Shown: positions 848 through 61,258, counted from the first letter of the stretch. The stretch: 64,000 nucleotides of DNA from an uncultured Cytophagales bacterium (GCA_963719525.1 CAVRCG010000004.1:925579-989578), one strand, 5' to 3'. Notes: generated by a model not told the origin, from the letters alone. A program made the numbers and translations.

Positions 848-1010
848 GTTAATCGCACCAAAAAACGAGGATTTTTGTAATTGTCAATGAATTTTAGCTG
901 CGTAGCTGCGTAATGTTGATATTTCTTATCTTCTTCAAAAACCAAATCACGACATTGCGCAGCTACGCAGCTTAAATCTCAAAAACGTCTAAATTAGATG
1001 CGATTAACTT
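848..1010. repeat. nested inverted-repeat (palindromic) element between convergent genes
   Basis: outer arms ggttaatcgcacc (848-860) / gatgcgattaac (999-1010); inner 20-bp arms agctgcgtagctgcgtaatg (896-915) / cattgcgcagctacgcagct (954-973), 1 mismatch. Confidence 0.6.
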
Positions 1011-3085: not shown

Positions 3086-3121
3086 ATTCTCTCGCCGTTG
3101 TTGGTGTCCCACCACCGACGT
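3086..3121. repeat. REP-like palindromic repeat (family 1: cattctctcgcc-gttgttggtgtccc-accaccgacg)
   Basis: GC-rich hairpin motif in AT-rich intergenic DNA; related copies at 12087, 12250, 26041. Confidence 0.55.
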
Positions 3122-12086: not shown

Positions 12087-12144
12087 GAGTTTCTACCATT
12101 GCTCGTGTCCTCTTCGCCGTTGTTGGTGTCCCCACCAACGACAT
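12087..12144. repeat. REP-like palindromic repeat (composite: ccattgctcgtgtcc + cgccgttgttggtgtccccaccaacgac)
   Basis: hairpin gttggtg-tcccc-accaac; 5' half (ccattgctcgtgtcc) identical to start of the copy at 59684. Confidence 0.6.
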
Positions 12145-12249
12145 CATTTATTATAAAAAAAACACAAATCCATTTTCTACGTTCTTACTAAGTAGAATTT
12201 TTTTAACTTTCGCAAAAACAGCTAAATTTTAGCTTTTATCGATATCTAT

Positions 12250-12278
12250 GCCGTTGTCGGTGTCCTCACCGATGACAC
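12250..12278. repeat. REP-like palindromic repeat (ccgttgtcggtgtcctcaccgatgacacc)
   Basis: 6-bp stem ggtgtc/gacacc; family 1 variant; 20 bp upstream of the DUF445-like gene. Confidence 0.55.
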
Positions 12279-30436: not shown

Positions 30437-31231
30437 TTATTTAGAATTAAGTGAAGCAATAATCATTTTCAGAATGCTTCTAGTTCTTGGCGACCACCAT
30501 TGTTTCAACATTGGTGCAAGTATTTCTTCCATATTGTTCATGTCCATTCCTTGAAGCATTCCAGAACGCAGATTTGTTTTGCTAAGCGACCATGTCTTTC
30601 CATCAAAATTAGCATAATCTTCCATTTTTTCTTCTGCATGCGAAAGCACTTTATCAGCCGAAACAACTGCATCAACTAAACCAATTTCCTTTGCTTGACT
30701 AGGATTAATTAATTTTCCCTCCAAAAGATATTGATAAGCTGTTTTATTTCCAATCCAAAACGCATACAAATCAAAAATTACCTTCGGTACAACGATTCCA
30801 ACAGGAATTTCATTGAGTCCGATAATATAATTTCCCTCAGCCATCACTCTATAATCTGCACAAACTGCCAACACACAACCACCAGCAGGACTATGACCTG
30901 TAATAGCTGCAATAAGTGGTTTTGGAAAAGAAGCAATTACTTTTGTCATGGTAATAAAAGCTACCCAAAATTCTTTTACTTCGTCTTCCTTCATAGCGTA
31001 AAGCTGCTTTAAGTCTAATCCAGAAGAGAAAAACTTTTCTTTTCCTGTAATGATTACACCGTTTACATCTTCATCATTTGCTGCTTTTTCAAAAAAGGCA
31101 TGCAAATCACTAATCATTTGGCGATTAATCGGATTTGCTTTTCCTCTATTTAATTGTAGAGTTACAATGTTATCTTTACTTGAAACAGTTAGCGTTTCAA
31201 AATCTGTTTTTACGGTTGCGTTGCTAGTCAT
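30437..31231 (-). CDS. enoyl-CoA hydratase/isomerase family protein
   Basis: 264 aa; crotonase motifs (…FFSSGLDL…ITGHSPAGGCVLA…). Confidence 0.8.
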   Translation of the reverse strand: MTSNATVKTDFETLTVSSKDNIVTLQLNRGKANPINRQMISDLHAFFEKAANDEDVNGVIITGKEKFFSSGLDLKQLYAMKEDEVKEFWVAFITMTKVIASFPKPLIAAITGHSPAGGCVLAVCADYRVMAEGNYIIGLNEIPVGIVVPKVIFDLYAFWIGNKTAYQYLLEGKLINPSQAKEIGLVDAVVSADKVLSHAEEKMEDYANFDGKTWSLSKTNLRSGMLQGMDMNNMEEILAPMLKQWWSPRTRSILKMIIASLNSK

Positions 31232-31424
31232 AGTTGTATTACGTATAACAGACTTCCTAGTCTGTTTGAATGTTTAAATACTTTGTTTTTTGCACAGACT
31301 AGGAAGTCCGTGCTACTTTTGATTAAAGTATAATACTACTAAAAAAAACTCAAAAACAGAAATTATGCGTGCATACTATTTTATTAATTTTAAAGATTTA
31401 TATATTTTTCAGTACTATTAAGTA

Positions 31425-41690: not shown

Positions 41691-41791
41691 AATTGAAAGT
41701 TTAAAGTTTTAGAAGGTTTTGAATTAGATTTGGAAAATGTATTTTAAGTATCACAGACTTCCCAGTCTGTGCAAAGAATTTTTGAATAATT

Positions 41792-43129: not shown

Positions 43130-43249
43130 TAAAAAATCAACATTTTAAATAAACTAAATTTTAATTTTTTCGTTACTTTTTGTAACTTGCAAAGTTTTGT
43201 TTTTGATTCTATTGCTATTAAACAGACCATTTTTTAAACTTTATTTTTT

Positions 43250-43669
43250 ATGAGTACTACCAATACAGAAAATTTTTTATTCGAAAATGAGTATGTTCTT
43301 TTCGATGTTACCAAATTTCCATTTATCTACATAGAACATACAGCGCATCAGCCTACACCAGAAGAATTTAATGACTACATAAATTGTATGAGTAGAGCCT
43401 TGTTGCGAAATGAACCCTATGTTTTGCTTGTCGATATGAGCAAAGTAGAATATCTGAATACTGAATACAGAACTATTAGTGAGAATTGGAATAAAACTAA
43501 TTCTGCTCATTTGGGTAAACATTGTAAAGGTGCTGCTAATTTGGTGCGTGATGAAGAACAAAAAGCAATATTGAATTATGTACTCAAATTAGCGTATGAC
43601 ATAACTTATCCAAATTTTGTTACTGTAAGTAAAGAAAAAGCAGAGCAATGGTTGGAAGGAAGAGTTTAG
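43250..43669 (+). CDS. small protein, tandem paralog 1 of 4 (unknown function)
   Basis: 139 aa; shared motifs FLFENEY-LFD-TKFP, CKGAAN, EQWLEGRV. Confidence 0.6.
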   Translation: MSTTNTENFLFENEYVLFDVTKFPFIYIEHTAHQPTPEEFNDYINCMSRALLRNEPYVLLVDMSKVEYLNTEYRTISENWNKTNSAHLGKHCKGAANLVRDEEQKAILNYVLKLAYDITYPNFVTVSKEKAEQWLEGRV

Positions 43670-43705
43670 ATTTTAAAACAGTGCTATAATTATGAATTTA
43701 ATTTT

Positions 43706-44122
43706 ATGGATAATTTTAATGTAAAAGAATTTCGTTTTGAGAATGAGTATTTTCTATTTGATGCAACTAAGTTTCCTTATTTGTACATAAGATTTAAAAT
43801 TGAAAAGCCGAACAGGAAACAGTTTGATGAGTATTTATATTGTCTGAATAACGTCATTCTACAACCTCAAAATTACGTTCTTTTTTCTGAACTCAAAGAA
43901 ACAGAATATATACAAGCCGAATTTAGAAAGGAGTTAGACAGTTGGCTTATCAAAAATATTGGACACATTAATCAATATTGTAAAGGTGCTGCAAATGTAG
44001 TAGCCGATGAAAATCAAAGACTACTTTTGACTCAAATGGTAAAAGCTCATCAACCAGTTTACCCTGTTTTTATTACCGATGACGAACAAAAAGCGAAAGA
44101 GTGGCTAGAAGGAAGAGTTTAG
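43706..44122 (+). CDS. small protein, tandem paralog 2 of 4
   Basis: 138 aa; FRFENEYFLFDATKFPYLYI…CKGAANVV…KEWLEGRV. Confidence 0.6.
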   Translation: MDNFNVKEFRFENEYFLFDATKFPYLYIRFKIEKPNRKQFDEYLYCLNNVILQPQNYVLFSELKETEYIQAEFRKELDSWLIKNIGHINQYCKGAANVVADENQRLLLTQMVKAHQPVYPVFITDDEQKAKEWLEGRV

Positions 44123-44158
44123 AAATTAATAAAACATTTTTTTAACTTTATTATCACT

Positions 44159-44575
44159 ATGAAAAATACTGAACCATCAAAATTTCTTTTTGAAAACGAT
44201 TATTGTCTTTTTGACTCTACTAATTTTCCTCATTTGTACATGAAGTTTAAAATTGAAAATCCTGATAAAAAGGAATTTTATGAATATTTAGACTGTATGA
44301 ATAAAATTTTGCTTCACGATAAAAAATATATTGTATTGGTGGAGCTAAACGGTTCGGAATATCTAAAAGCTGAATTTAGGAAAAGGTTAGCCGAATGGAA
44401 CGATGAGCATCATGAAATATTGAAAAAATATTGTAAAGGAGTAGCTTATATTAGCCATTCAGAAGAACAAAGGACGATGCTAAAAATTATTTTAGATGGT
44501 TATGTCTTGCCTCATCCTGTTGTGGTAACAGACACGCAAGAAAAAGCTGAAAACTGGCTGGCAAACAGAATTTAG
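44159..44575 (+). CDS. small protein, tandem paralog 3 of 4
   Basis: 138 aa; FLFENDYCLFDSTNFPHLYM…CKGVAYISHSEEQR…ENWLANRI. Confidence 0.6.
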   Translation: MKNTEPSKFLFENDYCLFDSTNFPHLYMKFKIENPDKKEFYEYLDCMNKILLHDKKYIVLVELNGSEYLKAEFRKRLAEWNDEHHEILKKYCKGVAYISHSEEQRTMLKIILDGYVLPHPVVVTDTQEKAENWLANRI

Positions 44576-44622
44576 ATTCAGAAAAATACTATTGATCATA
44601 TAAATCATTATCTTGTTTTGTT

Positions 44623-45039
44623 ATGAATAATTTTAATCCGAATGAATTTTACTTTGAAAATGAATATTTCTCTTTTGATGCAACAGCATTTCCATATATT
44701 TACATAAAATTCAAACCTCAAGTAGCTGAAAGAGAACAGTTTGATGGTTACATTCATTGTATGAATAAAATTCTTTTACAGGAAAAGTTTTATGTAATTT
44801 TGATAGAACTAGCAGATTCGGAATATTTAAAAGCAGAATTTAGAAAAGAACTAGCAGAATGGAACGTTAAATATATAGCACACATGGGCAAGTTTTGCAA
44901 AGGAGTAGCACATATTAGCCATTCGGAAGAGCAGCGTGTTATGATGAAAACAATTTTGAATAGTTATGTTTCGCCTTATCCTGTTGTGGTAACGGACACG
45001 CAAGAAAAAGCTGAAAATTGGCTGGCAGGACGAGTATAA
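44623..45039 (+). CDS. small protein, tandem paralog 4 of 4
   Basis: 138 aa; FYFENEYFSFDATAFPYIYI…CKGVAHISHSEEQR…ENWLAGRV. Confidence 0.6.
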   Translation: MNNFNPNEFYFENEYFSFDATAFPYIYIKFKPQVAEREQFDGYIHCMNKILLQEKFYVILIELADSEYLKAEFRKELAEWNVKYIAHMGKFCKGVAHISHSEEQRVMMKTILNSYVSPYPVVVTDTQEKAENWLAGRV

Positions 45040-48963: not shown

Positions 48964-50550
48964 TTACACCCAAACAGCAAAAATCTCTTTACCGTTATGT
49001 TGTATTTTCTCTTCTTTCCAATTGGGTTTTTCTCTGTCATCAAAAATAAGCAAAAAACCATTTTCTACGCCGTGAATTTCTAAGTAATTTGAAAGTTGAT
49101 TCAATCCTTTTTCGTGTAATTTTTCTCCTCTCCAAATTTTGAGTTCGATAATATATTTCCATTGCAAGTACGTAACAACAATATCCAAACGCTTTTCCTC
49201 CGACGTTTCAACTTCTTTAAAATCGTGTCCTTGTCCGTTCAGAATGGGTTTTAGAAAAGCTAAGAAAATCAAACGCCATTCTCGTTCTATTATGTTTCTA
49301 TTTTTTTTGCTGTACTGCTCTTTCATAAAAGCCTGAAACTTTCGCAGTATAGTTTCCAAATCCAGACTGCCATCATCTTCTGTAAACTGACTACCCAAAA
49401 AACGTCCTGCACCTAATTGTCCTGCTTCAATAAGACGTGCTGTCATGTATCTATAAATGCGCTGTTCGTAAATGCGATTATGAATTTTTATTATTCCGTT
49501 CTCCTTAAAAATACCATACATAAATCCAATACGTGTGAGAGAAGTATCAGGATTGAAGGGTATGCGTTCTCCTTCTACCAAAACTCTGTAAGTCAAATCG
49601 TACAAACCTTTATTATTCTCTAAATTTTTTATCAAACTATCAAAATTCGTGTTATTTTCTTTTAGTAAAAATTGTACGCTTACTTCCAAATCATCTAATG
49701 TCCATCTATTTTTATCTTCTTTGTTTATTTCGCCTTTATTAGGTAAAATATCTTCTGCAATAGTTTTGCATAATTTGGAAACCAAAAACGGATAACCTGA
49801 CGTATAATAATAGAGTTTTTCTGAAAACTGCTCAAAATCAATTTGCACATTTTCGGCTTCACTATACTGTTTGAGCATAAAGGCAATTTCATTTGGATAA
49901 AATTCCATTACAACCTTAAAATCAGCAGCAATATTCCACGGACTGTTATATTGAGTGTCCTCAGGATTACGTAACTTGAATTTTAAAGATTTGATGTCGT
50001 GTACTCCTGCCAAAACAATGCTATGAAAAGTGTAATGTTGAGGCAAATCTCTGCTCAAATATTTGGTACGCAACATACCCAACAAAACCAAAAAAGGCTC
50101 GTAATTACTACTTGCATCGACTTCATCTATGAGCAAAACTATTTTTTTTGAAGTCAGATGAACAATATCGGTTATAATGCTTGAAAGTTCTTCAATAGTT
50201 TGGGGTAGAACCAACTCCGTTAATTTGTCTTTTCCTTCAAATTCTTTAGAATAATTTAAAGAACGAAGTAGCTGTGTATAAAAAAACTGTCCGAAGGCAA
50301 TATCACTTTTGTAAGCCGAAGAACTTACTCCTTGAAAATTCATCAGAATAGGTAAGTAATCTTTTCTTTCATTCAATAGTCTATGTAAAGCAAAAAGCAT
50401 CGTCGTTTTTCCATACTGACGAGGACGATTAATAACAAAATAATCTCCATACTTTACCATCTTCATAATTCCTGCAAAACGACGACTATCGTCCATCATA
50501 TAATGCTCCGATGGGCGACATGTACCTGTTATATTAAATCCTTTTTTCAT
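48964..50550 (-). CDS. AAA-ATPase-like domain + PD-(D/E)XK nuclease (PDDEXK_9) family protein, copy 1
   Basis: 528 aa; Walker A RPRQYGKTT, Walker B LLIDEVD; C-terminal D…ELK nuclease core (RLDIVVTYLQWKYIIELKIW). Confidence 0.8.
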   Translation of the reverse strand: MKKGFNITGTCRPSEHYMMDDSRRFAGIMKMVKYGDYFVINRPRQYGKTTMLFALHRLLNERKDYLPILMNFQGVSSSAYKSDIAFGQFFYTQLLRSLNYSKEFEGKDKLTELVLPQTIEELSSIITDIVHLTSKKIVLLIDEVDASSNYEPFLVLLGMLRTKYLSRDLPQHYTFHSIVLAGVHDIKSLKFKLRNPEDTQYNSPWNIAADFKVVMEFYPNEIAFMLKQYSEAENVQIDFEQFSEKLYYYTSGYPFLVSKLCKTIAEDILPNKGEINKEDKNRWTLDDLEVSVQFLLKENNTNFDSLIKNLENNKGLYDLTYRVLVEGERIPFNPDTSLTRIGFMYGIFKENGIIKIHNRIYEQRIYRYMTARLIEAGQLGAGRFLGSQFTEDDGSLDLETILRKFQAFMKEQYSKKNRNIIEREWRLIFLAFLKPILNGQGHDFKEVETSEEKRLDIVVTYLQWKYIIELKIWRGEKLHEKGLNQLSNYLEIHGVENGFLLIFDDREKPNWKEEKIQHNGKEIFAVWV

Positions 50551-50587
50551 ATTTTTTGTTGTTTTACCTTACAAAGATAACAAAAAA

Positions 50588-50735
50588 GCAGGGGCGTAGA
50601 ACAAAAAAGCGTATGGCAATTTGTAGTAATGTAGGGACAATGCACGCATTGTCCTATAAAGCAGGAGGGAGTAGAACAAAAAAAACGTATGGCAAGCTAT
50701 AATTATGTAGGGACAATGCACGCATTGTGTTTGCT
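50588..50735. repeat. two tandem ~75-bp direct repeats, each with a gggacaatgcacgcattgtcc hairpin, upstream of copy 1
   Basis: unit 1 50588-50660, unit 2 50661-50735, ~85% identical; a degenerate partial unit follows copy 2 at 52458-52490. Confidence 0.7.
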
Positions 50736-50822
50736 AGAATAGATACGATAGAATAAAATTTTGTTGTATCAAAGATTTAGGAAATTCGTAAAAAACACTC
50801 CAAAAAAACAAAATATCTTTCT

Positions 50823-52424
50823 TTACACCCAAACAGCAAAAATCTCTTTACCGTTGTGTTGAATTTTCTCTTCTTTCCAATTGGGTTTTTCTCTATCATC
50901 AAAAATAAGCAAAAAACCGTTTTCTACGCCGTGAATTTCTAAGTAATTCGAAAGTTGATTTAATCCTTTTTCGTGTAATTTTTCTCCTCTCCAAATTTTG
51001 AGTTCGATAATATATTTCCATTGCAAGTACGTAACAACAATATCCAAACGCTTTTCCTCCGACGTTTCAACTTCTTTAAAATCGTGTCCTTGTCCGTTTA
51101 GAATGGGTTTTAAAAAAGCTAAGAAAATCAAACGCCATTCTCGTTCTATTATGTTTCTATTTTTTTTACTGTACTGCTCTTTCATAAAAGACTGAAACTT
51201 TCGCAGTATAGTTTCCAAATCCAGACTGCCATTATCTTTTACAAATTGACTGCCTAAATAAGATTCTTTTAGATTGTATTGCTGCTCGTGGAGCGTTTTT
51301 ACTAAGCGATTATTTGTCATATAATTATAGATGATTTGCTCATAAATGCGATTATGAATTTTGATAATCCCATTTCCTTTAAAAATCCCATACATTTCCC
51401 CCAATCGTATAGAACTTACGTGAGGATCATAAGGCACTTTAGAACCCTCCAGTAGAATAGCTTCAACCAATCTGTATAAACCTTCGTTGTTCTCTAAATT
51501 TTTTATCAAACTATCAAAATTCGTATTATTTTCTTTTAGTAAAAATTGTACGCTTACTTCCAAATCATCTAATGTCCATCTATTTTTATCTTCTTTGTTT
51601 ATTTCGCCTTTATTAGGTAAAATATCTTCAGCAATGGTTTTGCATAATTTGGAAACCAAAAACGGATAACCTGACGTATAATAATAGAGTTTTTCTGAAA
51701 ACTGCTCAAAATAAATTTGTACGTTTTCGGCTTCACTATATTGTTTGAGCATAAAAGCAATTTCATTTGGGTAAAATTCCATCACAACTTTAAAATCAGC
51801 AGCAATATTCCACGGACTATTATATTGAGTGTCTTCAGGATTACGTAACTTGAATTTTAAAGATTTGATGTCGTGTACTCCTGCCAAAACAATGCTATGG
51901 AAAGTGTAATGTTGAGGCAAATCTCTGCTCAAATATTTGGTACGCAACATACCCAGCAAAACCAAAAAGGGTTCGTAATTACTACTTGCATCGACTTCAT
52001 CTATAAGCAAAACTATTTTTTTTGAAGTCAGATGAACAATATCGGTTATAATGCTTGAAAGTTCTTCGATAGTTTGGGGTAGAACCAACTCCGTTAATTT
52101 GTCTTTTCCTTCAAATTCTTTAGAATAATTCAAAGAACGAAGTAGCTGTGTATAAAAAAACTGTCCGAAGGCAATATCACTTTTGTAAGCCGAAGAACTT
52201 ACTCCTTGAAAATTCATCAGAATAGGTAAGTAATCTTTTCTTTCATTCAATAGTCTATGTAAAGCAAAAAGCATCGTCGTTTTTCCATACTGACGAGGAC
52301 GATTGATAACAAAATAATCTCCATACTTTACCATCTTCATAATTCCTGCAAAACGACGACTATCGTCCATCATATAATGCTCCGATGGGCGACATGTACC
52401 TGTTATGTTAAATGCTTTTTTCAT
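50823..52424 (-). CDS. AAA-ATPase-like + PD-(D/E)XK nuclease family protein, copy 2 (tandem duplicate)
   Basis: 533 aa; >95% identical to copy 1 except a divergent ~80-aa internal cassette (residues ~320-400). Confidence 0.8.
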   Translation of the reverse strand: MKKAFNITGTCRPSEHYMMDDSRRFAGIMKMVKYGDYFVINRPRQYGKTTMLFALHRLLNERKDYLPILMNFQGVSSSAYKSDIAFGQFFYTQLLRSLNYSKEFEGKDKLTELVLPQTIEELSSIITDIVHLTSKKIVLLIDEVDASSNYEPFLVLLGMLRTKYLSRDLPQHYTFHSIVLAGVHDIKSLKFKLRNPEDTQYNSPWNIAADFKVVMEFYPNEIAFMLKQYSEAENVQIYFEQFSEKLYYYTSGYPFLVSKLCKTIAEDILPNKGEINKEDKNRWTLDDLEVSVQFLLKENNTNFDSLIKNLENNEGLYRLVEAILLEGSKVPYDPHVSSIRLGEMYGIFKGNGIIKIHNRIYEQIIYNYMTNNRLVKTLHEQQYNLKESYLGSQFVKDNGSLDLETILRKFQSFMKEQYSKKNRNIIEREWRLIFLAFLKPILNGQGHDFKEVETSEEKRLDIVVTYLQWKYIIELKIWRGEKLHEKGLNQLSNYLEIHGVENGFLLIFDDREKPNWKEEKIQHNGKEIFAVWV

Positions 52425-58125: not shown

Positions 58126-58842
58126 ATGAAAATATATTTAATTCCGATTTGGTTGGAAGATGGAAATAAGGAAAGTCTTTCGGTAGAAGTGCCATTGATT
58201 ATAAAACAAACAAAATACTTTTTAGTGGAAAATCTACGAACAGCAAGACGTTTTGTTTCTGCTTTGAAATTAGATATTGTAATCGATGATTTAGTTCTTT
58301 TTGAGTTGGATAAAAAAACTACAAAAGCAGAATTAGAAGGTTACTTTAAACAAATCCCACAAAAAGATGAGAACGGTAATCCTACAAAAATAGGAATTAT
58401 GTCAGAAGCTGGTTGCCCTGGAATTGCTAACCCCGGTGCGTTGGCAGTCGAATATGCACACAAAAATAATATTGAAGTTGTTCCTCTTGTTGGAGCGTCT
58501 TCGATTTTGTTGGCACTTATGGCTTCTGGTTTTAATGGACAAAATTTTGCTTTTCATGGTTATCTTTCAATTGATAAAGAAAAACGTCAGAATGAAGTCA
58601 AAAACTTAGAATCGGAAAGCCAAAAATTAAAACGTTCGCAGATTTTTATGGAAACACCTTATCGAAATAATTCTATTTTAAAGGATATTTTGAAAGTCTT
58701 GAATCCGAAAACTAAGCTTTGTATTGCTTCAAATATTACCTCTCAAAATCAATTTATCAAAACAAAAACGGTTGCAGAATGGAAAAAAGAAATACCAGAT
58801 TTACACAAAATTCCGACTATTTTTGTTCTATATGCAGTATAA
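58126..58842 (+). CDS. SAM-dependent methyltransferase, tetrapyrrole-methylase fold (RsmI-like)
   Basis: 238 aa; …IYLIPIWLEDGN… N-terminus and SEAGCPGIANPG (EAGTPGISDPG-like) motif. Confidence 0.65.
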   Translation: MKIYLIPIWLEDGNKESLSVEVPLIIKQTKYFLVENLRTARRFVSALKLDIVIDDLVLFELDKKTTKAELEGYFKQIPQKDENGNPTKIGIMSEAGCPGIANPGALAVEYAHKNNIEVVPLVGASSILLALMASGFNGQNFAFHGYLSIDKEKRQNEVKNLESESQKLKRSQIFMETPYRNNSILKDILKVLNPKTKLCIASNITSQNQFIKTKTVAEWKKEIPDLHKIPTIFVLYAV

Positions 58843-58859
58843 TAAAGTTAGAAGCCAGA

Positions 58860-59543
58860 ATGAAGAAGTTAGAAGTAAATACAATTTTAATCACAGAGTT
58901 CACAGAGGAATACAAATACTTTTTTCTGAAAAGAAATATGTTTTTTTCTGTTTTTTCTATAGTTTTTTTCTCGTTTTTTCTGCATTCAAATTTTGCTTCT
59001 GCTCAACTGGTTTCAGCAGGTTTTTTGACACAAGCAAATTATTCAAGGATTCGAAATATTGAAAATGTACGTCGTATTTCTTATGGTGCAGGTGGATTTT
59101 TGGAAATAAAATTGAAAGATAATTGGGCTATTCGACCACAGATTTTTTACAATCAAATTGGAGGAAATATAGGTTTAGAAAGACCAACTGAAAATTCTTT
59201 GCGCCTGCATTATTTAGAAAATCAATATTCACTTTCTTATATTTTTGAGGGTAATTACTGGCATTATCAAGTTTCGGCAGCACTTTCAGCAGCTTATCTT
59301 TGGAGAGCAAGGTTTGGACAAAATCCTGCTATTGATTTGCGTTGGGCAACTCACGATTTTGATTTTGGCTGGTTAGTGGGTTTTGGTTTTCGGTATGAAA
59401 CAGGTAATTGGCGATGGCTTTCAACTGAATTTCGGCATTATTGGGGAAGGAACTCTGTTTTTTTAGATGAATTTGGTTTTCCTGTTCGCAATTCTGTTTT
59501 TTCGGTTCGATTGGCGTATAGTTTTGCTTTGAAAATGAAGTAA
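58860..59543 (+). CDS. outer-membrane beta-barrel protein (start moved to MKKLEV…)
   Basis: signal-like hydrophobic N-terminus, alternating aromatic/hydrophobic beta-strand pattern, C-terminal …RLAYSFALKMK (terminal aromatic-x-hydrophobic typical of OM barrels). Confidence 0.5.
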   Translation: MKKLEVNTILITEFTEEYKYFFLKRNMFFSVFSIVFFSFFLHSNFASAQLVSAGFLTQANYSRIRNIENVRRISYGAGGFLEIKLKDNWAIRPQIFYNQIGGNIGLERPTENSLRLHYLENQYSLSYIFEGNYWHYQVSAALSAAYLWRARFGQNPAIDLRWATHDFDFGWLVGFGFRYETGNWRWLSTEFRHYWGRNSVFLDEFGFPVRNSVFSVRLAYSFALKMK

Positions 59544-59546
59544 TTA

Positions 59547-59752
59547 GCATGTCGCTGGTGCAACGTTATTACGTTAAGGATTTTCCATGTCGCTCGTGGG
59601 ACACGAGCAACGGAGGAGTTATTTTTTAGTTTAAAAAGAAACTAATTTACCAAATAAAATTTGTTTTCTGACAAAATACCTTACCATTGCTCGTGTCCCA
59701 CGAGCGATACAACCACTACAATCCTTAACTTAATGACATTGCATGAGCGATA
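59547..59752. repeat. MITE-like element: two ~65-bp inverted copies of a REP family-2 unit (gctcgtgggacacgagc core) flanking a 70-bp AT-rich spacer
   Basis: left copy 59547-59612 (…ccatgtcgctcgtgggacacgagcaacgg…); right copy 59684-59752 is its reverse complement (ccattgctcgtgtcccacgagcgatacaacc…); ttaaggatt / aatccttaa also inverted. Confidence 0.6.
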
Positions 59753-59768
59753 CAAAACATCAAAAATT

Positions 59769-60302
59769 ATGTCAAATTACACACCATCCAAATCATTCGA
59801 AAAAATAAATTTTACAGAAAAAGAGTTGCCAAAAGGAGAATATGAAGAATGTGTTTTTCTAAATTGTAACTTTGCTGAGAGTAATTTATCAGGAATTACC
59901 TTCATAAATTGTAATTTTAGTGGCTGCAATCTAAGCAACACAAAATTAGGTAATACATCGTTTCAAGATACAAAATTTAAAGATTCCAAACTTTTAGGAC
60001 TTCAATTTTCAGATTGTAATCCTTTTTTGCTTACGCTACATTTTGAAAACTGTTTGCTTGATTTTTCTTCATTCTATAAACTTAATTTGACAGGCTTTAC
60101 GTTCAAAAATTCTACCTTAAAGGAAGTTGATTTTACAGACTCTAACCTTAAAAAAAATAGTTTTGAGAACTGTGAATTGGAAAGAGCAGTTTTTGAAAAT
60201 ACCAATCTGGAAGGCACAGACTTTTCGAAAGAGCAACCAATTATTCTATCAATCCATCGAAAAACAAAATTAAGAAAGCTAAGTTTTCAAGTAGTGGAAT
60301 AA
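59769..60302 (+). CDS. pentapeptide-repeat protein (start moved to 59769, MSNYTPS…)
   Basis: tandem A(D/N)LxG-like pentapeptides (…CNFAESNLSGITFINCNFSGCNLSNTKLGNTSFQDTKF…); the upstream extension in the ORF track reads through the REP element. Confidence 0.7.
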   Translation: MSNYTPSKSFEKINFTEKELPKGEYEECVFLNCNFAESNLSGITFINCNFSGCNLSNTKLGNTSFQDTKFKDSKLLGLQFSDCNPFLLTLHFENCLLDFSSFYKLNLTGFTFKNSTLKEVDFTDSNLKKNSFENCELERAVFENTNLEGTDFSKEQPIILSIHRKTKLRKLSFQVVE

Positions 60303-60562
60303 AAGGACTTTTAGATGCGTTTGATATTCTGATAGAATAAGCTAAACAAAACAGTAATTACTGTCTAACAAAAATCTTTATTCGGTCTGTATTTGTTAAT
60401 TAGACTTAAACATTGTATTTTTGTTGTTTAGACAAATAGTGCTACTCTTTAAACGTTTTCCTTTGTGTAGGAACGTAAATTTAGATAAATCACTACTTTT
60501 TTTAACATATCAATCAGTTTGTAAGTCTATGAGTTATAATTTTAGTTCATAATTTTTAATCT

Positions 60563-61258
60563 TTGTTTATGTCTATTCTTCAAACTGTTCGTACTTCTAC
60601 TCGTTCAAAACACGATTTAATGGAAAATCTCATTGGTTCAGACCGTTTGAGTGAATTTTCTATTGAAGATTATATATTACTCTTGAGTACAAATTTTATT
60701 TTTCATTCGCATTTGGAAGAAAAAGTAAAAGAGTTTTTGCTAGAAGAAGAAGCGCAAAACGAATATAAAAAGGAAGCTCAAAAGGAGGATAAAAAGAACA
60801 ATAAAAAGAACAATAAAAACAAGGAACTAGAGAATAAATGGATTACAAAATTTGATTTTGACGAACGTATAAAAGCGATTGTCTTAGAACAAGAATTGAA
60901 AAATATACTTCCTCCTTCAACTTTTAAAGAAGTAAAGGCTATTCAAAATACAGTTTCGTTTTTAGATTATCACTCTCTTTTGGGGCGTGTTTATGTAGCA
61001 GAGGGTTCAATGTTGGGAGGAAAAATGATGCAAAAAATATTAGCCCAAAATGAGCAAATAAATCAGGTTACAAATTTTGATTTTTTCAAGAGTTTTGAAG
61101 GAACAGCTTTTCCTCTTTGGAAATCGTTTAAAGAATTGGTAGAAGAAGAATGTGTTACTGAAAAACAACAAGAAAATTTTTTAAATGGTGCAGAAAAATC
61201 TTATCTCTATTTCGAACAATCATTTTATAAAGCTAAAAACATTTTACAATCAAAATGA
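60563..61258 (+). CDS. bphO: heme oxygenase (BphO-type)
   Basis: 231 aa; …LGRVYVAEGSMLGGKMMQKIL… matches the HO distal-helix motif (Y.RYLGDLSGGQ.L); immediately upstream of a bacteriophytochrome. Confidence 0.65.
   Translation: MFMSILQTVRTSTRSKHDLMENLIGSDRLSEFSIEDYILLLSTNFIFHSHLEEKVKEFLLEEEAQNEYKKEAQKEDKKNNKKNNKNKELENKWITKFDFDERIKAIVLEQELKNILPPSTFKEVKAIQNTVSFLDYHSLLGRVYVAEGSMLGGKMMQKILAQNEQINQVTNFDFFKSFEGTAFPLWKSFKELVEEECVTEKQQENFLNGAEKSYLYFEQSFYKAKNILQSK

What the first reader, a model, noticed from the sequence alone, without database searches (positions are those of the whole stretch)
59547..59752. MITE-like inverted pair of REP family-2 units between an OM barrel gene and a pentapeptide-repeat gene
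Two ~65-bp sequences (59547-59612 and 59684-59752) are reverse complements of each other (core gctcgtgggacacgagc; also ttaaggatt / aatccttaa). They flank a 70-bp AT-rich spacer, giving a ~205-bp element with long terminal inverted repeats. The ORF-track start of the pentapeptide gene (59661) reads straight through it, so the real start is almost certainly 59769. The element could be a mobile miniature element or a large regulatory/terminator structure.
Basis: seen in the sequence. Interest (0 to 1): 0.5.

Follow-up and report, generated by a model that had tools for sequence, protein, structure and literature searches.

The report
Decayed MITE carrying REP-like hairpins
The 205-bp palindrome is an old, probably immobile 181-bp copy of a miniature transposon (IS4-like ends, two REP-like hairpins inside) that is high-copy and recently mobile in related Bernardetia; this is an ordinary kind of element, though I found no description of this family.

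Summary
Window 59548-59613 and 59684-59755 are inverted repeats around a 70-nt spacer of 20% GC (RNA fold -93.9 kcal/mol, z = -12.8).

Related sequences show what the palindrome is made of. It is a 181-bp MITE (59561-59741): 19-bp terminal inverted repeats (CAATGTCATTAAGTTAAGG type), linkers, an inverted pair of 24-nt REP-like hairpins, and the spacer. Two half-REP sequences flank the MITE and lengthen the palindrome.

Bernardetia-like metagenome contigs hold many 183-bp and 192-bp copies that are 93-99.5% identical to their consensus. Eleven of 17 copies with scorable flanks (the window copy included) have perfect 10-bp target-site duplications. The window itself holds the empty site (30387-30420) of one such insertion. 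The element ends fit the published IS4-subgroup end signature and match E. coli IS4 at 16 of 21 bases.

The window copy is 78% identical to the consensus, has a mutated left end and has no target duplication, so it is probably a relic. It is absent from the orthologous intergenic region of five relatives. The adjacent pentapeptide gene does start at 59769, and it is frameshifted near 60224.

No transposase gene was found. This is a new member of a known kind and of modest interest.

The parts
58938..59543 (+). Upstream gene: OMP_b-brl_2 outer-membrane beta-barrel protein. The likely start is M74 of the long ORF, which begins a signal peptide MFFSVFSIVFF...; the stop TAA is at 59541-59543.
   Evidence: Pfam PF13568, E 8.4e-10. 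Orthologues are 185-229 aa. Coordinates.
59548..59560 (+). Left flank, CATGTCGCTGGTG. It is a half-REP: the tag plus the 5' arm. Its last 10 nt are a 9/10 direct repeat of 59589-59598, inside the element.
   Evidence: (D1). The same kind of flank (ATGTCGCTCGTG next to CAATG) is seen at the L080, L082 and L144 insertions.
59561..59579 (+). Left terminal inverted repeat, CAACGTTATTACGTTAAGG. It matches the right one at 16/19 positions, and position 4 of the conserved -AATR end is mutated (T to C).
59580..59589 (+). Left linker, ATTTTCCATG. It corresponds to the 10-nt linker (TTTTTTTAAG type) of the family consensus.
59590..59613 (+). REP-like hairpin unit in + orientation, TCGCTCGTGGGACACGAGCAACGG. 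The stem is 59592-59598 paired with 59602-59608, with loop GGA.
59614..59683 (.). 70-nt spacer of 20% GC, homologous to the 71-nt spacer of the class-A family consensus.
59684..59707 (-). REP-like hairpin unit in - orientation, CCATTGCTCGTGTCCCACGAGCGA. It matches the left unit at 23/24 positions.
59708..59722 (+). Right linker, TACAACCACTACAAT. It corresponds to the CATAAACCAACTAAAT linker of the consensus, so the element lies in reverse orientation relative to my consensus.
59723..59741 (+). Right terminal inverted repeat, CCTTAACTTAATGACATTG, identical to the family consensus.
59742..59755 (+). Right flank, CATGAGCGATACAA. It is a half-REP: the 3' arm plus the tag. It is a 13/14 direct repeat of 59699-59712, inside the element.
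   Evidence: (D3).
59769..60340 (+). Downstream gene: a Qnr-like pentapeptide-repeat protein with its true start at 59769. It is frameshifted near 60224 in a T-run: the current ORF stops at 60302, while the homologous C-terminus is encoded in another frame up to 60340.

Best explanation
The feature is a diverged, probably no longer mobile copy of a non-autonomous DNA transposon (a MITE). The family element is 183 bp (class A) or about 192 bp (class B). Its layout is: 19-bp terminal inverted repeat CAATGTCATTAAGTTAAGG, a 16-nt linker, REP-like hairpin TCGCTCGTGGGACACGAGCAACGG, a 71- or 85-87-nt AT-rich spacer, the same hairpin inverted, a 10-nt linker, and the inverted terminal repeat.

Shown: the family inserts with 10-bp target duplications that abut CAATG.../...CATTG exactly. 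It was recently active in Bernardetia-like genomes. It often lands in palindromic sequences, especially the arms of REP-like hairpins and terminator stems, including the hairpins of other copies of itself.

Inferred: it is moved in trans by a DDE transposase of the IS4 family (IS4 subgroup) through cut-and-paste transposition with a 10-bp staggered target cut.

In the window, the copy landed just downstream of the OMP-barrel gene in or next to REP-like sequence. It has since accumulated about 22% divergence. Today it most likely acts only as a passive, very stable intercistronic hairpin. The simplest scenario for that, which is inference only, is two insertions into the two outer arms of a resident REP doublet followed by recombination between them.
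For: Family membership: the window copy aligns over its whole length to 11 full-length class-A copies at 77.6% identity to their consensus, and those copies are 93-99.5% identical to it. Linker asymmetry is preserved, so this is a true copy and not a mirror duplication.

Mobility: 11 of the 17 scorable copies have perfect 10-bp direct repeats at the ends and 12 have at least 8/10. The flanks are all different: ACCAATCCCC, ATCCAGTAGT, GGCTTTAGCC, CCCTAAGGGG, CTCTTTAGAG, GAGTAAAGGG, CACGAGCGAC, GTTGCTCGTG, and GTCGCTCGTG three times. In the filled/empty pair, L102 has the element inside AGACCCTAAGGGG|...|CCCTAAGGGGTTTTGAAAACCC, and the orthologous window site 30387-30420 has the uninterrupted hairpin.

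In the 117 low-GC contigs plus 9 genome loci I counted 240 hairpin units, with 69 tag-outward pairs and spacer-length modes at 71 and 85-87 nt.

Host: these contigs encode proteins 82-87% identical to window and Bernardetia proteins.

IS4 link: the element ends fit the IS4-subgroup signature -AATR--------WTW---- and its duplication range of 10-13 bp (PMC2266710 Table 1). They match the E. coli K-12 IS4 end at 16/21 positions (TAATGCCGATCAGTTAAGGAT against CAATGTCATTAAGTTAAGGAT); that IS4 copy has a 12-bp duplication.

Target choice: 34 of 100 scorable ends abut REP arms, and many others abut CTCTWWAGAG-type palindromes. Nested element-in-element insertions occur in L144 and L080. IS4-family targeting of REPs has a precedent in ISRm22 (PMC1525189).

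Polymorphism: the element is absent downstream of the OMP-barrel orthologue in L016, L017, L018, L019 and L020.
Against: The window copy has no target duplication: its 10-nt flanks match 2/10 as direct repeats and 7/10 as inverted repeats. No transposase gene of any kind was found in the 572 kb of held DNA, so the IS4 assignment rests only on end sequence and duplication length. Only one copy lies in this 64-kb window, and the source genome could not be retrieved, so copy number and activity in this genome are unknown. REP doublets without the terminal repeats and without target duplications also exist, although my pattern missed at least one variant terminal repeat, in L068. The hairpin pair may therefore also spread by a second route. 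Some metagenome contigs may be the same locus assembled from different samples; L111 and L145 look identical. The comparison with relatives is confounded because they have also lost the neighbouring pentapeptide gene.
Confidence: 0.8

Rival explanations
1. REPIN-type element. Under this reading the mobile unit is the inverted REP doublet (59590-59707), moved by a REP-associated tyrosine (Y1/HUH) transposase without target duplication, and the outer repeats are incidental.
For: The internal doublet has REPIN/BIME architecture, with tags outward: 69 of 100 adjacent unit pairs have this arrangement. Doublets lacking the terminal repeats sit in unique DNA without target duplications in Bernardetia genome contigs and in metagenome contigs. 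Hairpin arms covary between subfamilies (CTCG/CGAG, TCGG/CCGA, TTGG/CCAA), as expected for structure-recognised repeats. Y1 transposase subclasses 2.4 and 2.6 are frequent in Bacteroidetes (PMC6006769).
Against: The window copy carries both terminal repeats. Family copies have 10-bp duplications exactly at those repeats, not at the hairpins. No Y1 transposase was found with E. coli RayT by tblastn or with HUH/Y motifs in 572 kb, though this is a weak test. The 5' tag is RTC or TGTC, not GTAG.
Confidence: 0.1
2. Locus-specific regulatory or terminator structure. Under this reading a long hairpin was selected here to terminate or stabilise the OMP-barrel transcript, or to control the pentapeptide gene.
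For: The predicted hairpin is very stable. It fills the space between two co-directional genes, starting 5 nt after the stop codon and ending 13 nt before the start codon. Single REP-like hairpins are conserved at orthologous intergenic sites between species.
Against: The same element occurs at many unrelated sites. It is absent at the orthologous site in five relatives. No terminator-like site with a T-run was found in 58600-60700. No Rfam family reaches threshold; the only matches are generic sub-threshold miRNA-precursor hits to a long hairpin.
Confidence: 0.05
3. Mobile insertion cassette. Under this reading the MITE and the adjacent Qnr-like pentapeptide gene moved together, as described for the qnrD and qnrS2 cassettes.
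For: The relatives L018 and L020 lack both the element and the gene. The best pentapeptide homologue is only 59% identical. Papers on qnr genes in mobile insertion cassettes exist (PMC3913671 and PMC2600179, from their titles and abstracts).
Against: There is no terminal repeat downstream of the gene. L019 keeps a relic of the 3' end of the same gene at the same locus (74.7% over 95 nt; tblastn E 0.001), so the gene was ancestral here and was lost elsewhere. The element is complete on its own.
Confidence: 0.03

Closest known systems
MITEs and cassettes derived from IS4-family insertion sequences, e.g. IS231-derived MIC231 of the Bacillus cereus group (mentioned in PMC2266710; details from my own knowledge)
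   Same: Short and non-coding. Terminal inverted repeats match the family end signature. Target duplication is about one helix turn (10 bp). Targets are often palindromic. The element depends on a transposase supplied in trans.
   Different: The host is Bacteroidota (Bernardetia). The interior is an inverted doublet of REP-like hairpins rather than remnant IS sequence or a passenger gene. The cognate IS has not been identified.
REPINs and BIMEs (Bertels and Rainey 2011, PMC3116915)
   Same: There is an inverted REP doublet with a spacer that folds into a long hairpin. Doublets predominate over singlets. New copies insert into or next to existing ones, building clusters.
   Different: REPINs are linked to RAYT genes and carry GTAG-tagged REPs. 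Here the complete element has extra DDE-type terminal repeats and 10-bp duplications, no RAYT was seen, and the tag is RTC or TGTC.
CGTC-tagged REP super-family, 'HH' dimers (Di Nocera et al. 2013, PMC3733652)
   Same: An unpaired tag sits at one end, and CGTC is often TGTC in that super-family. Most units form HH dimers with 20-100-bp spacers. No dedicated transposase is known. The super-family has been found in Bacteroidetes.
   Different: The described families have 8-9-bp stems starting with A/T pairs, 4-5-nt loops and a CCA tail. Here the stem is 7 GC-rich pairs, the loop is 3-4 nt and the tail is AAYGG.
Insertion sequences that target REPs, such as IS1397, ISKpn1, IS621, ISPpu9 and the IS4-family ISRm22 (Tobes and Pareja 2006, PMC1525189)
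   Same: Insertion goes preferentially into REP palindromes: 34 of 100 ends here abut REP arms.
   Different: Here the inserting element is a MITE that itself carries the same REP hairpins, so each insertion adds two new targets, and nested copies are observed.
Correia elements of Neisseria (from my own knowledge)
   Same: About 100-150-bp MITEs in intergenic regions that form long hairpins in transcripts.
   Different: Correia elements duplicate TA and have unrelated ends. No RNA-level data exist for the present family.

Membership tests
MITE (non-autonomous DNA transposon) | Short (under about 300 bp) with no coding capacity | tested here: met
   The element is 181 bp. The only ORF through it is the spurious 5' extension of the pentapeptide ORF.
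MITE (non-autonomous DNA transposon) | Terminal inverted repeats shared by all copies | tested here: met
   CAATGTCATTAAGTTAAGG / CCTTAACTTAATGACATTG are found at both ends of 17 scorable copies, and 100 ends were scored. The window copy matches 16/19 between its own two ends.
MITE (non-autonomous DNA transposon) | Target-site duplication of fixed length flanking the copies | tested here: met
   For the family, 11 of 17 scorable copies have perfect 10-bp duplications and 12 have at least 8/10. The window copy itself does not: its flanks match 2/10 as direct repeats.
MITE (non-autonomous DNA transposon) | Presence/absence polymorphism with an identifiable empty site | tested here: met
   The filled site in L102 aligns to the empty site at window 30387-30420. 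The element is absent at the orthologous OMP-barrel locus in L016-L020.
MITE (non-autonomous DNA transposon) | Multiple dispersed copies in one genome | tested here: inconclusive
   There are many copies in Bernardetia-like metagenome contigs and several in one Bernardetia MAG. Only one copy lies in this 64-kb window, and the source genome was not retrievable.
IS4 family, IS4 subgroup (as source of the ends) | End signature -AATR--------WTW---- (PMC2266710, Table 1) | tested here: met
   CAATGTCATTAAGTTAAGGA fits at every specified position, and 16/21 positions are identical to the E. coli IS4 end. The left end of the window copy breaks the signature (CAAC).
IS4 family, IS4 subgroup (as source of the ends) | Target duplication of 10-13 bp | tested here: met
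   The duplication is 10 bp in 11 copies. One variant copy, in L068, has about 12 bp.
IS4 family, IS4 subgroup (as source of the ends) | Cognate single-ORF DDE transposase with a YREK motif, flanked by the same ends | tested here: inconclusive
   None was found in 572 kb by tblastn with E. coli InsG or by a YREK pattern; the one pattern hit is a glycosyltransferase.
REPIN | Two REPs in inverted orientation plus a spacer, forming a hairpin | tested here: met
   The internal doublet 59590-59707 has this form, and tag-outward pairs make up 69 of 100 adjacent pairs.
REPIN | Association with a RAYT (Y1 transposase) gene flanked by the same REPs | tested here: inconclusive
   No RayT-like sequence or HUH/Y motif was found in the held DNA. 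Whole genomes were not searchable.
REPIN | GTAG tag at the 5' end of the REP | tested here: not met
   The tag is RTC, often TGTC.
CGTC-tagged REP families 1-4 (PMC3733652) | A CGTC, TGTC or CCTC tag; an 8-9-bp stem starting with A/T pairs; a 4-5-nt loop; a CCA tail | tested here: not met
   The tag is compatible (TGTC or RTC). The stem is 7 bp and GC-rich (GCTCGTG), the loop is 3-4 nt and the tail is AAYGG. Predominance of HH dimers is met.
Intrinsic terminator | GC-rich hairpin immediately followed by a T-run | tested here: not met
   No terminator-like sites were found in 58600-60700.
Any Rfam RNA family | A match at the family's gathering score | tested here: not met
   The only matches are miRNA-precursor models far below gathering score (49 bits against 200), which reflects a generic long hairpin.

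The most novel reading that the evidence does not exclude
The family is a chimera in which IS4-type terminal repeats mobilise a REP doublet, and the transposase prefers REP arms as targets. Every insertion then adds two new targets, so the element nests into itself and into resident REPs. BIME-like mosaics would in that case be built by DDE transposition rather than by a RAYT. The doublets without terminal repeats, and the flank arrangement of the window copy (half-REP | element | inverted half-REP), would be recombination or decay products of such nests.
Probability: 0.35. Interest if true: 0.5.

Novelty: new member of a known kind. Interest (0 to 1): 0.3.

Why it matters
The result explains a conspicuous palindrome as transposon debris rather than a regulator. 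It corrects the start of the neighbouring pentapeptide gene and shows that the gene is frameshifted. It also documents, with target duplications and an empty site, a MITE family in Bernardetia (Cytophagales) that I found no description of and that breaks metagenome assemblies. The family links two classes of small repeats that are usually treated separately, REP doublets and DDE-type MITEs. If REP arms are its preferred target and also its cargo, it offers a simple route to mosaic repeat clusters without a RAYT. Practically, the 19-bp end sequence and the 24-nt hairpin are usable markers for repeat masking and strain typing in this genus.

Tried and rejected
- Exact-protein look-ups for three window proteins found nothing, so the source genome is not on record there.
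- The viral contig scan for the core 19-mer gave 0 hits.
- A plasmid search with the consensus element gave no match.
- Rfam gave only generic long-hairpin hits.
- The sigma-70 promoter scan was not above shuffles (11 found, 8.0 +/- 3.0 expected) and the terminator scan found no sites.
- tblastn with E. coli IS4 InsG and with RayT against all held DNA found nothing. Motif scans for Y1 and YREK gave one false positive, a glycosyltransferase in L006.
- The IS that interrupts the OMP-barrel orthologue in L017 has unrelated ends (CTAGTTAACGTGAACTCGGT), so it is not the autonomous partner.
- I searched for target duplications around REP doublets that lack the terminal repeats and found none adjacent.
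- I searched for symmetric REPs (tag on both sides) that could explain the window flanks as a loop insertion and found only one variant, in L045.
- I searched the window for a second copy of either 10-nt flank, as would be expected for a composite element including the pentapeptide gene, and found none.
- I considered an integron attC site and a CRISPR repeat from the look of the sequence. I rejected both: there is no R-box pattern, no array, and units occur as inverted pairs with variable spacers.
- I considered a mirror duplication of one half of the element. I rejected it because the two linkers differ exactly as they do in the family consensus.

Full report
**1. The observation**

The region was read directly. 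One search finds two inverted-repeat pairs: 59552-59582 with 59720-59750 (31 nt, 84% complementary) and 59590-59613 with 59684-59707 (24 nt, 96%), the latter 70 nt apart. The core TCGCTCGTGGGACACGAGC occurs exactly twice in 64 kb, once per strand, with none expected by chance. The stretch 59540-59770 folds as RNA into a single long hairpin at -93.9 kcal/mol, z = -12.8 against shuffles, and as DNA at z = -9.1. Rfam gives only far-sub-threshold miRNA-precursor matches, which reflect a generic long hairpin.

**2. The organism and the hairpin unit**

The window is about 31% GC. A scan of one genome per species with the 19-mer hit Bernardetia sp. OM2101, a Bernardetia MAG (eight copies on five contigs) and three uncultured Cytophagales MAG contigs, plus six chance hits in GC-rich genomes. 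The window's rRNA methyltransferase-like protein has Bernardetia orthologues at 85-89% identity. The source genome itself was not retrievable.

Aligning the copies defines a unit (R)T(R)TCGCTCGTGGGACACGAGCAAYGG, with a 7-bp stem and a 3-4-nt loop. The units mostly occur as inverted pairs with the TCGC end outward. A sister family (CCGTTGTTGGTGTCCCCACCAACGA type) occurs at window 3095, 12117 and 12251. Across all units, the four variable stem positions change in a compensated way: CTCG/CGAG in 195 units, TCGG/CCGA in 7, TTGG/CCAA in 6. These are REP-like hairpins in the general sense.

**3. The full element**

Nearly all are low-GC contigs from a few samples, and many end inside the repeat. These contigs encode proteins 82-87% identical to window and Bernardetia proteins, so they come from relatives. 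They contain 240 hairpin units. Tag-outward pairs dominate (69 of 100 adjacent pairs), and spacer lengths cluster at 71 and 85-87 nt. The window's 70-nt spacer is homologous to the 71-nt class.

Sequence conservation continues beyond the hairpins through short linkers to a 19-nt motif, CCTTAACTTAATGACATTG, and then stops abruptly. Full-length copies are 183 bp (class A) or about 192 bp (class B, with motif variant CCTTAGCTTAATAGCATTG). The window copy, 59561-59741, aligns end to end with 11 class-A copies at 77.6% identity to their consensus, while those copies are 93-99.5% identical to it. The two linkers differ from each other in the window exactly as they do in the consensus. The window copy is therefore a genuine, reverse-oriented copy and not a local mirror duplication.

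**4. Evidence of transposition**

Of the 17 copies with both flanks available (16 in relatives plus the window copy), 11 have perfect 10-bp direct repeats abutting CAATG.../...CATTG, and 12 have at least 8/10. Their outer flanks are all different.

Contig L102 is orthologous to window 30449-31246. There the class-B element sits inside a terminator-like hairpin with CCCTAAGGGG duplicated. The window has the uninterrupted hairpin AGACCCTAAGGGTTTTTGAAAACCCTTAGGGTCT at 30387-30420. This is a filled site and its empty site.

Thirty-four of 100 scorable ends abut arms of the REP-like hairpin, and many others abut CTCTWWAGAG- or GGCTTTAGCC-type palindromes. In L144 and L080, one copy lies inside the hairpin arm of another copy.

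**5. Which transposase**

The end CAATGTCATTAAGTTAAGGA fits the IS4-subgroup end signature -AATR--------WTW----, and the 10-bp duplication fits that subgroup's range of 10-13 bp (PMC2266710 Table 1). I took the IS4 copy of E. coli K-12 from its record. Its end TAATGCCGATCAGTTAAGGAT matches the element at 16 of 21 positions, and it is flanked by a 12-bp duplication. An IS4-family element with all nine copies inside REPs, ISRm22, has been described (PMC1525189).

The link to an IS4-type DDE transposase is therefore a reasoned inference.

**6. The window copy in detail**

The layout is:
- OMP-barrel stop, 59541-59543
- TTAG
- half-REP CATGTCGCTGGTG, 59548-59560
- left terminal repeat, 59561-59579
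- linker, 59580-59589
- hairpin, 59590-59613
- spacer, 59614-59683
- hairpin, 59684-59707
- linker, 59708-59722
- right terminal repeat, 59723-59741
- half-REP CATGAGCGATACAA, 59742-59755
- 13 nt
- ATG, 59769

The 10-nt flanks match 2/10 as direct repeats and 7/10 as inverted repeats. Each flank is also a 9/10 to 13/14 direct repeat of the outer arm of the nearest internal hairpin (D1 and D3). Elsewhere, that is the signature of insertion into a REP arm (L080, L082, L144).

One insertion cannot give a half-REP on both sides. The simplest history I can propose is two insertions into the two outer arms of a resident doublet, followed by recombination. This is inference and remains unexplained in detail. 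One other copy, in L052, also has inverted flanks.

The left terminal repeat has three changes, including one in the conserved -AATR end. Together with the 22% divergence and the missing duplication, this points to a relic.

**7. The locus in relatives**

L018, L019 and L020 have methyltransferase, OMP-barrel gene, heme oxygenase and phytochrome in the same order, but without the element and without the pentapeptide gene. L016 and L017 are rearranged downstream of the OMP-barrel gene.

The promoter-proximal region of the heme oxygenase gene aligns among all of them. L019 retains a relic of the 3' end of the pentapeptide gene. The gene was therefore ancestral at this locus and was lost elsewhere, and the absence of the element in relatives is partly confounded by those deletions.

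The spot is repeat-prone. L019 carries a different inverted repeat there. L017 has an unrelated IS in the OMP-barrel gene and another hairpin after it. Four Logan contigs all break 40 nt after the gene, in a hairpin whose first 14 nt also flank an element end in L077.

**8. The neighbouring genes**

Pfam confirms OMP_b-brl_2 and pentapeptide repeats. Homologues of about 190 aa align from their residue 5 to residue 40 of the 213-aa ORF, so the start is the ATG at 59769. The homologous C-terminus (residues 153-190) is encoded in a different frame, 60224-60337, after a T-run. The gene is therefore frameshifted, or that run is mis-sequenced.

**9. Rivals**

The REPIN/RAYT model fits the internal doublet and fits the doublets that lack terminal repeats and duplications. 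It does not account for the terminal repeats and the 10-bp duplications, and no Y1 gene was seen, although that test was weak.

A dedicated terminator or regulator is contradicted by the multi-copy, polymorphic nature of the element and by the lack of a T-run.

A cassette that includes the pentapeptide gene is contradicted by the relic in L019 and by the lack of a second end.

**10. Comparison with the literature, and verdict**

By the criteria of Di Nocera et al. (PMC3733652), the hairpins resemble CGTC/TGTC-tagged REPs in HH dimers, but they fail the stem, loop and tail definitions. By the criteria of Bertels and Rainey (PMC3116915), the doublet looks like a REPIN, but it lacks the GTAG tag and a RAYT.

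The searches I ran on Bernardetia repeats and on Bacteroidetes MITEs linked to the IS4 family returned no description of this family.

Verdict: this is a real feature and was correctly read as MITE-like. It is a new member of a known kind, and the copy in this window is probably inert. Interest is modest. The REP-carrying, REP-targeting behaviour is the one aspect worth following up.

Noticed in passing
window 60219-60340: The Qnr-like pentapeptide gene is frameshifted at a T-run (gacttttcgaaagagc). Homologue residues 5-153 align in one frame up to 60224, and residues 153-190 align in another frame up to the stop at 60338-60340. This is either a pseudogene or a homopolymer sequencing error.
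   Followed up: yes
L019 11649-11742 (orthologous intergenic region of a related Bernardetia): This stretch is a relic of the 3' end of the same pentapeptide gene (74.7% identical over 95 nt; tblastn E 0.001). The gene was therefore ancestral at this locus and was deleted in relatives.
   Followed up: yes
window 30387-30420: The terminator-like hairpin AGACCCTAAGGGTTTTTGAAAACCCTTAGGGTCT is the empty site of a class-B MITE insertion seen in metagenome contig L102, where CCCTAAGGGG is duplicated.
   Followed up: yes
window 12093-12145 compared with L129 2700-2745: At an orthologous intergenic site the relative has one intact family-2 hairpin. The window has a 22-nt insertion that creates a family-1 hairpin followed by the left-over loop and 3' arm of the family-2 unit. 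This looks like a snapshot of how hairpin subfamilies arise.
   Followed up: partly
window 3095-3118, 12117-12141, 12251-12275: These are single REP-like hairpins of a sister family (CCGTTGTTGGTGTCCCCACCAACGA type). The one at 12251 is conserved at the orthologous place in L129, which suggests that single units are old and stable.
   Followed up: partly
L144 1034-1261, L080 1152-1379, L052 3113-3245: L144 and L080 show element-in-element insertions into the hairpin arm of another copy. L052 shows a threefold tandem repeat of a 44-nt unit (hairpin arm plus linker plus terminal repeat).
   Followed up: partly
L021-L024 (Logan contigs), last 25 nt: All four contigs end 40 nt after the OMP-barrel gene, in the hairpin GGTTAAAGGCTTGCCTTTGACC. 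The same 14-mer flanks an element end in L077. A repeat probably sits at this locus in that lineage too.
   Followed up: no
L019 11490-11625: A different inverted-repeat pair (AGTTACAGCGCAACGCAC ... GTGTGTTGCACTGCAACT) occupies the same intergenic position downstream of the OMP-barrel gene.
   Followed up: no
L017 11160-12233: An IS with a DDE_Tnp_1 transposase (302 aa) and 28-nt inverted repeats interrupts the OMP-barrel orthologue. Its ends are unrelated to the MITE ends.
   Followed up: partly
window 48964-52424: Two tandem paralogous genes (528 and 533 aa, with long stretches 96-97% identical in DNA) are separated by a pair of 50-nt direct repeats (50603-50652 and 50679-50728), each ending in the hairpin ACAATGCACGCATTGT. 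Their function was not examined.
   Followed up: no
window 891-977; 31250-31318 and 41746-41778: Further small GC-rich palindromic repeats occur here (GCTGCGTAGCTGCG type and ACAGACTTCCTAGTCTGT type). They are probably other hairpin-repeat families of this genome.
   Followed up: no
window 43248-45027: Four copies of a 160-nt repeat spaced about 456 nt apart, plus a second 138-nt repeat pair. This is probably a repeated domain within a coding region.
   Followed up: no
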